Positions 1 to 1,315 of a DNA stretch of 23,584 nucleotides are shown here, piece by piece (the first letter of the stretch is position 1; each line of letters opens with the position of its first letter). Under the pieces are notes generated by a model. It was not told the DNA's origin, made no database searches, and was given only the letters and a program-made list of their open reading frames with translations. The position numbers were made by a program, and so were the translations under genes. Location of the stretch: the UHGV virus genome UHGV-1336742. One strand, given 5' to 3'. This DNA comes from a virus.

Positions 1-451
1 GCATCAGGGCATAACCAGACGGAACGGTATCTGATGGCCACGGGATTGGTGCGCCGACTGGGTAGCTTTCTGGTGGAAGATTTTTCGAGGTATAAACTTC
101 TGCCCAGTCTTCCTCAAAACCATAACCGTCTCTTGAAGAACGGTAGAACAGACCACCATTTCTGTAATGCGCCTTCATCTGCAAGGTCCGGCAACTTCCG
201 ACTCCGGTATAGAAGTTAACCAGAATATAGCTGTCGCCAGAGCGAGTGACATTGTAAGCGCCTGATTCGGCATTCCAGGGAACGCCCCCATCCGCATCGG
301 CATACGTATCCGTTGCTCTTCTGGCAAAAGCAGCAACATGCGCAGCGGTTAAAGTGATATCAGTAGAACCATCAAACGAAACACCAGATATTTTTATTGC
401 TGTCTGAAGTTTCGTAGCTGTATCAGAATTTCCCTTAGTCGGTGATGTTTT
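1..451 (-). pseudogene. Side tail fibre protein, C-terminal-region fragment without start codon; reading frame runs off the left edge
   Basis: Minus-strand frame opens after a TGA at 452-454 and reads ...GNSDTATKLQTAIKISGVSFDGSTDITLTAAHVAAF...EDWAEVYTSKNLPPESYPVGAPIPWPSDTVPSGYALM; the PIPWPSDTVPSGYALM motif is characteristic of Mu/P1/e14/lambdoid tail fibres. No plausible start near the 5' end. Confidence 0.6.
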
Positions 452-620
452 TCAGTTGCTCATCAGCCAGCACAACAGGCGGCACGTTGTCGGCAGCAAT
501 ATGTTTACCTGCCCACTCCTGCCACTCTTTCGCATGGCTCCACGCATCACTACCCGCAAAGATGATTACCTCTGTCAGTCTGTCGCGTGGCTGTTTTTTT
601 AAGTTCGGTGCAAGCTTCAT
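435..620 (-). CDS. Hypothetical small protein (61 aa), last gene of a four-ORF operon
   Basis: ORF MKLAPNLKKQPRDRLTEVIIFAGSDAWSHAKEWQEWAGKHIAADNVPPVVLADEQLKNITD; start overlaps the stop of the upstream ORF (ATGA). No family recognised. Confidence 0.4.
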   Translation of the reverse strand: MKLAPNLKKQPRDRLTEVIIFAGSDAWSHAKEWQEWAGKHIAADNVPPVVLADEQLKNITD

Positions 621-916
621 TTTTTGCCCCTGAATGCGTTAATCATGCTTTTCATTTTCTGGATATTTCCCCGCACTTTTTCCCTGCTGGTGGGTTTACT
701 GCGGGGCGCAGCATGTACCAGGGAAAAATCACGCCGGAATTGATAAACAGGCATCACGCAATCATATTCGTAACCTTCACGGCGGTAGGTGATGCGCCGT
801 TCTGCCACGCCTTTAATCGTTACCGTACCGCCGTAGTTATCACGGAAAATATCGCCGGGGCGGATTTCAGGCCGAGAGAAGTCACTGGCAGTAAAGCCAG
901 AATTTTTCTTTTTCAT
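617..916 (-). CDS. Hypothetical basic protein (99 aa)
   Basis: ORF MKKKNSGFTASDFSRPEIRPGDIFRDNYGGTVTIKGVAERRITYRREGYEYDC...; 5-nt gap to upstream ORF and 4-nt overlap with downstream ORF. No family recognised. Confidence 0.45.
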   Translation of the reverse strand: MKKKNSGFTASDFSRPEIRPGDIFRDNYGGTVTIKGVAERRITYRREGYEYDCVMPVYQFRRDFSLVHAAPRSKPTSREKVRGNIQKMKSMINAFRGKK

Positions 917-921
917 GGTTT

Positions 922-1122
922 TTATTTTCCTGTCAGTGATTCAAGTTTTATTCCGGCACGAATACAGGCCTCAGAAAAAAAAGCCAGAGAACCAACAACC
1001 TCATTATTTCTAAGGCGGCATTGTGATTTCACTTTCCCTTTATCGAGAAATATCAAAACGCGTCCCGTATAATCTGACGGCACATTAAGAACTACAGGTA
1101 AGTGCGCTTCATAATTGTGCAT
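922..1122 (-). CDS. Hypothetical small protein (66 aa)
   Basis: ORF MHNYEAHLPVVLNVPSDYTGRVLIFLDKGKVKSQCRLRNNEVVGSLAFFSEACIRAGIKLESLTGK; overlaps upstream ORF by 14 nt. Confidence 0.3.
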   Translation of the reverse strand: MHNYEAHLPVVLNVPSDYTGRVLIFLDKGKVKSQCRLRNNEVVGSLAFFSEACIRAGIKLESLTGK

Positions 1123-1315
1123 GCTGCGCCCCCTGACGAATACAGGCAGTGAATACCATCACGCAGCCAACCGTGGATTGCTGGCGGACTTCCTGTTCGC
1201 TGGTGGCCTCGATGTGAATCACGCGCGGTTGTGCGGTGCTCAGGGCGATAAAACGCCAGATGTATTTATTCAGGTTGTGCGAGTCCCGCCCTTGCGGGTG
1301 TGTGGTATGATTTAA
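1109..1315 (-). CDS. Hypothetical small protein (68 aa), first gene of the leftward operon
   Basis: Internal Met of the 1109..1684 track ORF: MLNHTTHPQGRDSHNLNKYIWRFIALSTAQPRVIHIEATSEQEVRQQSTVGCVMVFTACIRQGAQHAQL. The longer version overlaps the RHH gene and has implausible S/L/P-rich composition. Confidence 0.3.
   Translation of the reverse strand, partial: LNHTTHPQGRDSHNLNKYIWRFIALSTAQPRVIHIEATSEQEVRQQSTVGCVMVFTACIRQGAQHAQL

What the first reader, a model, noticed from the sequence alone, without database searches (positions are those of the whole stretch)
435..1315. Tightly packed operon of four small unrecognised ORFs divergent from the RHH gene
Four minus-strand ORFs of 68, 66, 99 and 61 aa are packed into 880 bp with overlaps of 14 nt, a 5-nt gap and a 4-nt ATGA overlap. 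They start at the divergent operator region and end at the tail fibre deletion junction. The packing argues for real translationally coupled genes. I recognise none of them; small coupled genes at this position in phages and satellites are often anti-defence, host-takeover or toxin-antitoxin pairs. The 99-aa/61-aa overlapping pair is TA-like in layout only.
Basis: inference. Interest (0 to 1): 0.5.

Follow-up and report, generated by a model that had tools for sequence, protein, structure and literature searches.

The report
Truncated satellite replication operon with antisense RNA
The four small ORFs are the front end of the replication operon of a phage satellite (PICI) embedded in a prophage: three are real, conserved genes, the fourth is the stump of the satellite's primase cut by a deletion, and an unannotated antisense RNA lies over the operon's first ribosome-binding site.

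Summary
The ORF geometry is real: 14-nt overlap, 5-nt gap, ATGA overlap. The first ORF starts at 1318, not 1315.

The ORFs are recognisable:
- ORF1 (1109-1318) is an Icd-like protein (NF033153, 55 bits). It matches the same HMM segment as the FtsZ-binding core of phage P1 Icd.
- ORF2 (922-1122) is a phrog_340 accessory protein of unknown function.
- ORF3 (617-916) is DUF4222, predicted to be an SH3/Tudor-like barrel.
- ORF4 (435-620) is not a small gene. It is codons 1-61 of a 619-aa primase/helicase, cut at a deletion junction (436-440) that fuses it to the middle of a tail-fibre gene.

So the "TA-like 99/61 pair" is DUF4222 plus a primase stump.

The same order, Icd-like, then 1-6 variable small ORFs, then DUF4222, then replicase, occurs in 129 distinct operons, including the model satellite EcCICFT073. 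DUF4222 and the replicase overlap by 4 nt in 127 of them. dN/dS is 0.18-0.42. The element sits inside a prophage terL gene, as a helper-embedded PICI does.

New here: a structured ~80-nt RNA on the + strand (1319-1400), antisense to the Icd-like leader and Shine-Dalgarno. It has its own -10 box, compensatory base changes, strand-specific G-U pairs and a terminator. It probably gates translation of the whole coupled operon.

The parts
1109..1318 (-). ORF1: Icd-like protein (69 aa), the first ORF of the operon
   Evidence: NF033153 phage_ICD_like scores 55 bits against a cut-off of 25, over residues 18-61. It also matches phrog_6196 at 1e-39. P1 Icd matches the same HMM at residues 12-51, which is the FtsZ-binding antibacterial core reported in PMC11897509. 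dN/dS is 0.33 over 98 unique sequences.
922..1122 (-). ORF2: 66-aa accessory protein of unknown function (phrog_340)
   Evidence: phrog_340 matches at 3e-19. Only 31 clusters were found among 5.8 billion proteins, all Escherichia/Enterobacteriaceae. It is present in 34-39 of 129 operons, usually directly upstream of DUF4222, with dN/dS 0.31. The AF2 model is poor (pLDDT 66) and has no fold match.
617..916 (-). ORF3: DUF4222 protein (99 aa), the constant partner of the replicase gene
435..620 (-). ORF4: 5' stump (codons 1-61 plus a junction-made stop) of the satellite primase/helicase gene
   Evidence: It matches positions 1-58 of the 465-position phrog_2850 profile and the DNA primase family phrog_864. 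It is 100% identical to residues 1-61 of the 619-aa 'DNA primase family protein' WP_087907453.1 of E. coli A5. It ends in the middle of an N-terminal domain of about 125-140 aa that is shared by three replicase classes.
436..440 (.). Deletion junction between satellite DNA and tail-fibre DNA, with 2-5 bp of shared bases
   Evidence: Satellite homology starts at 436. Tail-fibre homology ends at 437-440. No other genome or locus examined shares this junction.
1..439 (-). Internal fragment of a prophage tail-fibre gene (about residues 778-924 of a 1115-aa protein)
   Evidence: It is 99.5-100% identical to 'prophage tail fiber N-terminal domain-containing protein' genes. Its reading frame differs from that of ORF4.
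1319..1400 (+). Predicted cis-antisense small RNA of about 80 nt: stem-loop I with a variable 7-nt loop, then a covarying terminator stem-loop with a U-rich tail. It is complementary to the Icd-like leader and Shine-Dalgarno.
   Evidence: RNAalifold predicts 23 pairs, 7 of them with compensatory changes. 98.2% of cells are paired, 0 of 500 shuffles reach the observed values, and slid controls give 33-58%. On the + strand 98% of cells pair, including 99 G-U cells; on the mRNA strand only 84% pair. Mean MFE is -35.3 against -22.2 kcal/mol, and the antisense strand is more stable in 74 of 74 sequences. Covariance model R1 finds the RNA in 72 of 80 loci that were chosen only by DUF4222, always antisense to the operon.
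1303..1311 (+). Extended -10 box (TGgTATGAT) for the antisense RNA, lying inside Icd-like codons 3-5
   Evidence: A TAnnnT hexamer (TATGAT, TATAAT or TATGCT) lies exactly 7 nt upstream of the modelled RNA 5' end in all three sequence types of the RNA, with one locus (L024) offset by a shifted model alignment.
1435..1464 (-). Promoter-like site for the leftward operon (TTGACA, 18-nt spacer, TATGTT)
   Evidence: It matches the consensus at 10 of 12 positions. This is a consensus match only and was not tested.
1413..1457 (.). Two copies of a palindromic operator-like site (AGGTGTACACCT at 1413-1424 and ATAGGTGTACAC at 1446-1457) flanking the -10 of the leftward promoter
   Evidence: Binding by the RHH protein is inferred.
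1458..1652 (+). Divergent RHH (Arc/HicB/YlcI-like) regulator gene
   Evidence: It matches phrog_228 (Arc-like repressor) at 9e-6 and gives weak HicB and YlcI/YnfO matches. A YlcI/YnfO or HicB-like gene holds this position in most of the related loci whose annotation was read; the O157:H7 locus L012 has none.
2344..4438 (-). The rest of the satellite that survives: Bro-N protein (2344-2925), AlpA-like HTH_17 protein (2984-3187) and integrase (3200-4438)
   Evidence: The gene order is identical to that of the intact element in E. coli A5.
4600..5592 (-). N-terminal (ATPase) fragment of the host prophage's terminase large subunit gene, the satellite's integration target
   Evidence: PF05876 GpA_ATPase matches at 7e-81 over profile positions 2-247 of 247. 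In A5 and SCU-125 the C-terminal half of the gene lies on the far side of the satellite.

Best explanation
SHOWN
- Window 435-1318 is the promoter-proximal part of the replication operon of a Gram-negative phage-inducible chromosomal island (PICI).
- This PICI is embedded in the terminase large-subunit gene of a Qin-like lambdoid prophage, so it is a helper-embedded PICI.
- The canonical gene order is: divergent RHH regulator; Icd-like gene; a variable slot of 1-6 small ORFs (here one, ORF2); DUF4222; a 465-711-aa primase/helicase; then SSB and captured late genes.
- In this genome a deletion with a few bases of microhomology removed everything from primase codon 62 to the middle of the prophage tail-fibre gene. 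What remains is a 61-codon stump that ends at a stop codon made by the junction.
- ORF1-3 are intact and 100% identical to those of the intact element.
- A structured, covarying RNA of about 80 nt is encoded antisense to the Icd-like leader and Shine-Dalgarno. A conserved -10 box lies 7 nt upstream of it, inside the Icd-like ORF, and it ends in a terminator-like hairpin with a U-rich tail.

INFERRED
- Transcription starts leftward at a promoter bracketed by two palindromes that the RHH protein probably binds.
- The antisense RNA pairs with the leader and blocks translation of the Icd-like ORF.
- Because the ORFs overlap or nearly abut, this also gates the downstream genes down to the replicase. 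The analogues are P1 C4 RNA/icd/ant and plasmid R1 CopA/tap/repA.
- When expressed, the Icd-like protein probably arrests host division through FtsZ, as P1 Icd does.
- DUF4222 probably works with the replicase's shared N-terminal domain.
- In this window the module can no longer replicate the element. At most it can make Icd-like, ORF2, DUF4222 and a primase fragment that is probably inert.
For: Identity of the ORFs.

Intact relatives:
- E. coli A5 is 100% identical from window 436 onward and continues into a 619-aa primase, SSB, a capsid/protease fusion and DUF1441, all lying between two halves of terL. SCU-125 has the same layout.
- EcCICFT073 and ten other loci have the same gene order.
- In 129 distinct operons the DUF4222/replicase overlap is 4 nt in 127, and the replicase is full length in 125.

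Stump and junction:
- All 61 residues of ORF4 equal primase residues 1-61.
- The junction is unique to this window.

Coding constraint.

Link to P1 Icd:
- P1 Icd and ORF1 match the same 48-position HMM; in P1 the matched segment is the FtsZ-binding core, residues 12-51 (PMC11897509).
- P1 icd overlaps ant1 by 4 nt, and the P1 record notes that icd is required for ant expression.

Antisense RNA. It is present in O157:H7 locus L012, where no + strand gene follows it.

Literature context:
- HE-PICIs and the four-zone PICI organisation: PMC10111431.
- GN-PICI biology and the statement that a global repressor is unclear: PMC6092414.
- An Icd-like protein as the likely effector of phage-triggered growth arrest in a six-gene locus that includes a primase: bioRxiv 10.1101/2023.04.06.535777.
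Against: - No expression data exist for the RNA, the promoters or the proteins. All regulatory steps rest on sequence alone.
- ORF1 and P1 Icd give no pairwise BLASTP alignment. The link is at HMM level only, so FtsZ targeting is an extrapolation.
- The terminator tail in this window (GUUGCGUUAUUAAAU) is weaker than in many relatives.
- Whether the integration site equals one of the published HE-PICI site groups was not checked.
- Translational coupling across three junctions is inferred from geometry.
Confidence: 0.75

Rival explanations
1. One reading: four independent small accessory genes (anti-defence or host takeover), with the 99-aa/61-aa overlapping pair acting as a type II toxin-antitoxin pair.
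For: The ORFs are tightly packed and the last pair has an ATGA overlap. Two members (ORF2, DUF4222) have no known function.
Against: The 61-aa ORF is residues 1-61 of a 619-aa primase and ends at a stop made by the junction. The ATGA overlap is the conserved DUF4222/replicase junction, seen in 127 of 129 operons. Neither ORF matches a TA or defence family.
Confidence: 0.03
2. The Icd-like to DUF4222 genes are mainly a phage-triggered growth-arrest (abortive infection or superinfection exclusion) module carried by the satellite, with the Icd-like protein as effector, and not accessories of replication. The antisense RNA is then the antitoxin of a type I toxin-antitoxin-like pair.
For: [quoted passage not shown] The P1 Icd core inhibits growth through FtsZ (PMC11897509). 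The RNA has the architecture of SymR, a type I antitoxin (PMC1891008).
Against: The ECOR61 locus was not compared with this one at sequence level. The invariant linkage and coupling to the replicase fits a leader-ORF role equally well, and the two roles do not exclude each other. PADLOC has no significant hit.
Confidence: 0.25
3. The structured + strand RNA is not a stand-alone antisense RNA. It is the 5' leader (attenuator) of the divergent RHH regulator mRNA, and its effect on the Icd-like gene is incidental.
For: No consensus sigma-70 promoter was found between the hairpin and the RHH start codon. The terminator tail in this window is weak, so read-through into the RHH gene at 1458 is plausible.
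Against: In O157:H7 locus L012 the RNA is present with a strong U-tail but no + strand gene follows it. The sequence downstream of the hairpin is not conserved among loci. The complementary target covers the Shine-Dalgarno, and in two RNA types also the start codon, of the Icd-like gene.
Confidence: 0.15
4. The conserved block is a DNA-level element, for example a recombination linker between mosaic modules or a single-strand initiation site, and not an RNA.
For: The Icd-like gene and about 40-80 nt of leader form the most nucleotide-conserved segment between otherwise mosaic loci. dS in the Icd-like gene (0.46) is about half that of its neighbours.
Against: The strand asymmetry (99 G-U pairs on one strand that become A-C mismatches on the other), the compensatory changes, the fixed-distance -10 box and the U-rich tail are all properties of an RNA.
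Confidence: 0.05

Closest known systems
EcCICFT073 and other Gram-negative PICIs (Fillol-Salom et al. 2018, PMC6092414)
   Same: Same gene order: int, alpA-like gene, divergent small RHH gene, Icd-like gene, small ORFs, DUF4222, pri-rep, SSB, captured late genes. ORF1 is 90% and ORF3 70% identical to the CFT073 proteins. The antisense RNA is present there too (L004 7503-7585, 81.6 bits).
   Different: The element here is truncated inside pri and has lost ori, SSB and the late zone. It has one ORF in the variable slot where CFT073 has four. It carries a Bro-N gene. It is integrated in a prophage gene and not at a chromosomal site.
Helper-embedded PICIs (HE-PICI; Tommasini, Mageeney and Williams 2023, PMC10111431)
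   Same: [quoted passage not shown] It has the integration, Bro and replication zones.
   Different: A later deletion removed the far end of the satellite, attR and the helper's head and tail genes up to the tail fibre, so neither partner can be functional. Identity of the integration site with a published site group was not tested.
Phage P1 immI operon (c4 RNA, icd, ant1/2)
   Same: An Icd-family ORF heads a translationally coupled operon (P1 icd and ant1 overlap by 4 nt). An antisense RNA occludes the icd ribosome-binding site.
   Different: C4 is encoded upstream in the same transcript and acts through short loops. Here the RNA is cis-encoded on the opposite strand and is not a C4 relative: there is no RF01695 hit in the window and no R1 hit in P1. 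The downstream genes are replication genes, not an antirepressor.
SymE/SymR of E. coli K-12 (Kawano et al. 2007, PMC1891008; Rfam RF01809)
   Same: A ~77-80-nt cis-antisense RNA with two stem-loops. Its promoter is embedded in the first codons of the target ORF and it covers the translation start region. The two give reciprocal weak matches with exact coordinates: RF01809 hits window 1319-1391, and R1 hits the annotated symR with the same 5' end.
   Different: The scores are far below the family threshold (21.7 bits against a gathering score of 61). Only one of the three sequence types resembles SymR. The target protein is unrelated (Icd-like, not the AbrB-fold SymE).
Plasmid R1 CopA/tap/repA and IncI/IncB Inc RNA/repY/repZ copy control (from established knowledge)
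   Same: An antisense RNA with a specificity loop blocks translation of a short leader ORF that is translationally coupled to the replication initiator gene.
   Different: Here the leader ORF encodes a conserved 69-aa Icd-family protein, and two or more further ORFs lie between it and the replicase. No experimental evidence exists.

Membership tests
Gram-negative PICI / helper-embedded PICI | Integrase and AlpA-type regulator at one end, co-oriented with the primase gene | tested here: met
   The integrase is at 3200-4438 (Arm-DNA-bind_3 plus Phage_integrase). The HTH_17/excisionase-like ORF is at 2984-3187. All lie on the minus strand, like the operon.
Gram-negative PICI / helper-embedded PICI | Replication zone with a complete primase/helicase (pri-rep), ori and SSB | tested here: not met
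   Only codons 1-61 of pri remain; ori and SSB are deleted. The feature is met in the 100% identical element of E. coli A5. The window therefore holds a decayed remnant of a member.
Gram-negative PICI / helper-embedded PICI | Integration within a late gene of a helper prophage, co-oriented with that gene | tested here: met
   A terL GpA_ATPase fragment lies at 4600-5592 (minus strand), directly beyond int. In A5 and SCU-125 the two terL halves flank the element. attR is lost in the window.
Icd family (NF033153; P1 Icd) | Score above the curated cut-off of the family HMM, over the segment that forms the P1 Icd functional core | tested here: met
   ORF1 scores 55 bits against a cut-off of 25, over residues 18-61 and profile positions 1-48. 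P1 Icd scores 52.6 bits over residues 12-51. Pairwise BLASTP finds nothing.
Icd family (NF033153; P1 Icd) | Binds FtsZ and blocks Z-ring formation, giving filamentation | not testable with these tools
   This is known for P1 Icd only (PMC11897509).
Pfam DUF4222 (PF13973) | Score above the Pfam gathering threshold | tested here: met
   ORF3 scores 86.8 bits against 27, over residues 16-67.
   The 61-aa ORF is a truncated primase N-terminus. DUF4222 matches no TA family. In 125 of 129 relatives the downstream partner is 465-711 aa.
SymR (Rfam RF01809) | Score at or above the family gathering score | tested here: not met
   The score is 21.7 bits against 61, with E 0.91. The reciprocal hit of R1 on K-12 symR is 17.4 bits. 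The resemblance is in architecture and possibly distant ancestry only.
C4 / isrK immunity RNAs of P1 and P4 (RF01695, RF01394) | Covariance-model hit in or near the operon | tested here: not met
   There is no hit in window 1-5000 at E up to 1. Both families are found in one related locus, L020 (75 and 62 bits), so the search is able to detect them.
Cis-antisense regulatory RNA (type I antitoxin or copy-control type) | Own promoter, conserved secondary structure, intrinsic terminator, and complementarity to the target's translation start region | tested here: met
   This is shown at sequence level only: the -10 box at a fixed distance, covariation and strand asymmetry, the U-rich tail, and the target Shine-Dalgarno within the complementary region. 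Transcription itself was not testable.

The most novel reading that the evidence does not exclude
Gram-negative PICIs, for which no master repressor has been identified, keep their replication operon silent with a previously undescribed SymR-like cis-antisense RNA. This RNA occludes the ribosome-binding site of an Icd-like leader ORF. Its variable 7-nt loop (13 variants) and three stem-loop I types would define specificity or immunity groups, as antisense loops do for plasmid incompatibility. The Icd-like protein and the RNA would at the same time form a type I toxin-antitoxin-like pair. That pair would arrest cell division when the satellite is induced and would account for phage-triggered growth arrest by such loci.
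Probability: 0.4. Interest if true: 0.65.

Novelty: new member of a known kind. Interest (0 to 1): 0.4.

Why it matters
For genome annotation, a "tight operon of small unknown ORFs" next to a deletion can be the stump of a longer operon. The 61-aa ORF should be called a pseudogene fragment, not a gene.

For satellite biology, the conserved head of the PICI replication operon (Icd-like gene, variable slot, DUF4222, replicase) occurs in about 1,900 of 5,426 complete E. coli genomes. Even so, the genes between alpA and pri are left as hypothetical proteins in the PICI papers read here, and PMC6092414 states that how Gram-negative PICIs are kept repressed is unclear. A covarying antisense RNA over the first ribosome-binding site, next to an RHH operator, is a concrete candidate for that negative control and is cheap to test. 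The constant DUF4222/replicase pairing across three unrelated helicase classes also points to a testable cofactor relationship.

Tried and rejected
- PDB sequence searches with ORF1-3 gave nothing meaningful.
- PADLOC gave no significant defence-family hit.
- The ORF2 structure model was poor (pLDDT 66), and Foldseek against the PDB gave no match with E below 2. Its function stays unknown.
- The search of ORF4 against 1.84 billion representative proteins was uninformative. Many short hits are probably contig-end fragments, mixed with 416-711-aa replicases. The 129-operon census is the better test.
- The genome-contig scan with the DUF4222 alignment returned only two loci because the patterns were narrow.
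- tblastn of ORF1 and ORF3 against the phage collection found one record and none respectively. These subfamilies are essentially specific to satellites.
- The first dN/dS values for ORF1 against nine close relatives were near 1 and suggested a non-coding element. With 98 unique sequences the ratio is 0.33, so ORF1 does code. The nucleotide conservation is instead partly explained by the overlapping antisense promoter and RNA.
- I considered a C4/CI-type immunity RNA and rejected it for this window.
- I considered RNase P-substrate mimicry by the ACCACCA tract on the sense strand. I dropped it because the structure folds on the opposite strand.
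Full report
**Observation.** The window has four minus-strand ORFs at 1109-1318, 922-1122, 617-916 and 435-620. They encode 69, 66, 99 and 61 aa. The junctions are a 14-nt overlap, a 5-nt gap and an ATGA overlap. Everything else in the description holds.

**What the ORFs are.** Profile searches identify three of the four.
- ORF1 is an Icd-like protein: NCBIfam NF033153 scores 55 bits against a cut-off of 25, and phrog_6196 matches at 1e-39.
- ORF3 is DUF4222 (PF13973, 7e-25).
- ORF2 belongs to phrog_340, of unknown function.
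- ORF4 matches only the first 58 positions of the 465-position phrog_2850 profile, and the DNA primase family phrog_864.

**ORF4 is a stump.** E. coli A5 is 100% identical to the window from position 436 onward. There the fourth gene is a 619-aa "DNA primase family protein", followed by SSB, a protease/capsid fusion and a DUF1441 gene. All 61 residues of ORF4 equal primase residues 1-61. The stop codon TAA at 437-435 is made by the junction.

To the left, window 1-437/440 is an internal piece of a prophage tail-fibre gene, about residues 778-924 of a 1115-aa protein, in a different reading frame. ORF4 is therefore a pseudogene stump. The "99/61 TA-like pair" is the DUF4222/replicase junction with the replicase cut off. 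No other genome or locus examined shares this junction. The surviving part is 965/965 nt identical to intact elements, so the deletion looks recent.

**Context.** The genes to the right are:
- an RHH regulator (1458-1652, + strand);
- a 147-aa membrane protein;
- a Bro-N protein;
- an AlpA-like HTH protein;
- a tyrosine integrase.

Beyond the integrase lies the ATPase half of a lambda-type terminase large subunit gene. In A5 and SCU-125 the whole element sits between the two halves of terL of a lambdoid prophage. This is the helper-embedded PICI configuration of Tommasini, Mageeney and Williams (PMC10111431).

The same order (divergent RHH gene, Icd-like gene, small ORFs, DUF4222, replicase, SSB) is found in the model Gram-negative PICI EcCICFT073 and in ten other E. 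coli loci I inspected. Some part of the 1-kb query matches 1,939 of 5,426 complete E. coli genomes.

**Census of related operons.** I collected 129 distinct operons from E. coli genomes and IMG/VR contigs.
- DUF4222 overlaps the replicase start by exactly 4 nt in 127 of them.
- The replicase ORF is 465-711 aa in 125. Only three others are truncated, at 256, 76 and 33 aa.
- The replicases fall into three helicase classes: D5_N/DUF5906/Pox_D5, AAA_25 RepA-like, and DUF927.
- All three classes share an N-terminal domain of about 125-140 aa without a Pfam model. ORF4 is the first half of that domain.
- Between the Icd-like gene and DUF4222 lie 1-6 ORFs drawn from about six real families.
- ORF2-like genes occur in 34-39 operons by direct similarity, usually immediately upstream of DUF4222.

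All the ORFs are under purifying selection. dN/dS is 0.33 for the Icd-like gene, 0.31 for ORF2, 0.42 for DUF4222 and 0.18 for the replicase N-terminus, with an excess of third-position changes. Its other criterion ("match known gene fragments") is met for ORF4, although the fragment is from a replication gene, not a structural one.

**Function of the proteins.**
- *Icd-like.* P1 Icd (73 aa) matches NF033153 at residues 12-51. This is exactly the 40-aa core that PMC11897509 reports to bind FtsZ and block division. ORF1 matches the same 48 profile positions at residues 18-61, with shared motifs IWRF, ATxxExxxR and FTA. Pairwise BLASTP finds nothing, so FtsZ targeting is an inference.
- *Coupling in P1.* P1 icd overlaps ant1 by 4 nt, and the P1 record notes that icd is needed for ant expression.
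- *A related locus.* A preprint reports that in ECOR61 a six-gene prophage locus with an Icd-like gene and a primase arrests growth when a phage accessory protein is expressed. [quoted passage not shown] I could not compare that locus by sequence.
- *ORF2.* The model is poor and has no fold match.

**An antisense RNA at the head of the operon.** Aligning the Icd-like region across loci showed that the ORF plus 40-80 nt of leader is the most nucleotide-conserved block in otherwise mosaic loci. The leader also showed obvious compensatory changes.

Read on the + strand, window 1319-1400 has three parts:
- a long stem-loop I (AGCUACC.CGAUA, a 7-nt loop, then UAUCG..GGUGGUU) with 13 loop variants;
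- a short spacer;
- a covarying stem-loop II followed by a U-rich tail.

The structure is well supported.
- On 29 distinct sequences, 98.2% of cells pair and 7 pairs show double-sided changes. None of 500 shuffles reaches the observed values, and slid controls give 33-58% pairing.
- The fold is strand-specific. On the + strand there are 99 G-U cells. On the mRNA strand only 83.8% of cells pair. Mean MFE is -35.3 against -22.2 kcal/mol, and the antisense strand is more stable in 74 of 74 sequences.
- A covariance model (R1) finds the element beside the Icd-like start in every PICI locus tested, including CFT073, O157:H7 and Shigella, but not in P1 immI.
- R1 also finds it in 72 of 80 loci selected only by DUF4222, always on the strand opposite the operon.
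- Three sequence types of stem-loop I keep the fold through compensatory changes (9 pairs, 0 of 500 shuffles).
- In two of those types the loop carries the anti-Shine-Dalgarno and the RNA covers the start codon.
- A TAnnnT hexamer lies exactly 7 nt upstream of the modelled 5' end in all three types, apart from one locus where the model alignment is shifted. In the window it reads TGgTATGAT at 1303-1311, inside Icd-like codons 3-5.
- In O157:H7 locus L012 no + strand gene follows the RNA, which argues for a stand-alone RNA and against a leader of the RHH mRNA.

Rfam has no family that reaches threshold here. The only hint is SymR: RF01809 matches window 1319-1391 at full length but with only 21.7 bits. 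Reciprocally, R1 hits the annotated K-12 symR from its exact 5' end at 17.4 bits. SymR is a 77-nt cis-antisense RNA whose promoter lies inside the first codons of its target and which blocks the target's translation (PMC1891008). The architecture is therefore the same, but family membership is not established.

C4 and isrK RNAs are absent from the window. They do occur in one related operon, L020.

Two literature searches found no description of an antisense RNA at this position in PICIs. The library is limited, so this is not proof of novelty.

**Proposed mechanism (inferred).**
1. A leftward promoter-like site (TTGACA at 1464-1459, TATGTT at 1440-1435) is bracketed by two palindromes, at 1413-1424 and 1446-1457. 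The divergent RHH protein probably binds them.
2. The mRNA leader is fully complementary to the antisense RNA.
3. Pairing would hide the Icd-like Shine-Dalgarno. Because the ORFs overlap or abut, this would hold down translation of the whole chain to the replicase. The analogues are P1 C4/icd/ant and R1 CopA/tap/repA.
4. On induction, the Icd-like protein would stop division while the satellite replicates.

In this window the replicase, ori and packaging genes are gone. The module is a non-replicating remnant that may still express three small proteins and a primase fragment.

**Verdict.** The finding is a correctly observed but ordinary structure: the truncated head of a known kind of satellite operon. 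The TA-like reading is wrong. The added value is the well-supported, apparently undescribed antisense RNA and the DUF4222/replicase pairing. Both can be tested in EcCICFT073.

Noticed in passing
window 1319-1400 (+), with its -10 box at 1303-1311: An unannotated, covarying two-hairpin RNA lies antisense to the Icd-like leader and Shine-Dalgarno. It is present in 72 of 80 related loci and gives a weak reciprocal match to SymR. I treat it in the report as part of the mechanism.
   Followed up: yes
window 435-620, and L001 8736-9185 and equivalent positions: The first 125-140 aa of the satellite replicases form a conserved domain with no Pfam model. It is shared by three unrelated helicase classes (D5/DUF5906, AAA_25 RepA-like, DUF927) and is always preceded by DUF4222 with a 4-nt overlap. 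This suggests a swappable module that may interact with DUF4222.
   Followed up: partly
window 1-5592 as a whole: The satellite is embedded in terL of a Qin-like lambdoid prophage. One deletion removed the satellite's distal half together with the prophage's terL C-terminus and its head and tail genes up to the tail fibre. Both partners are therefore defective.
   Followed up: partly
window 1684-2127 (+): A 147-aa predicted membrane protein sits directly downstream of the RHH gene, with no family match in Pfam, NCBIfam, PHROGs or PADLOC. It lies in the variable Bro/accessory zone and ends at a bidirectional terminator-like hairpin at 2150-2168.
   Followed up: no
L020 2423-2505, 3170-3250, 3374-3450 and 3472-3559: One related IMG/VR locus has two copies of the antisense RNA (so probably two Icd-like heads). 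It also has bona fide isrK (62 bits) and C4 (75 bits) RNAs on the sense strand upstream of DUF4222. Two kinds of RNA control may therefore coexist in one operon.
   Followed up: no
window 1109-1318 compared with 435-916: Synonymous divergence in the Icd-like gene (dS 0.46) is about half that of DUF4222 (0.90) and the replicase N-terminus (1.19). The overlapping antisense promoter explains only the first few codons. The rest may reflect recent module exchange or a further nucleotide-level constraint.
   Followed up: partly
Slot between the Icd-like gene and DUF4222 in 129 related operons (window 922-1122 is the single occupant here): The slot holds 1-6 small ORFs from about six families. Some occur as 2-4 tandem paralogues, including distant relatives of ORF2 by single-linkage clustering. 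It looks like an accessory-gene hotspot inside a translationally coupled operon.
   Followed up: partly
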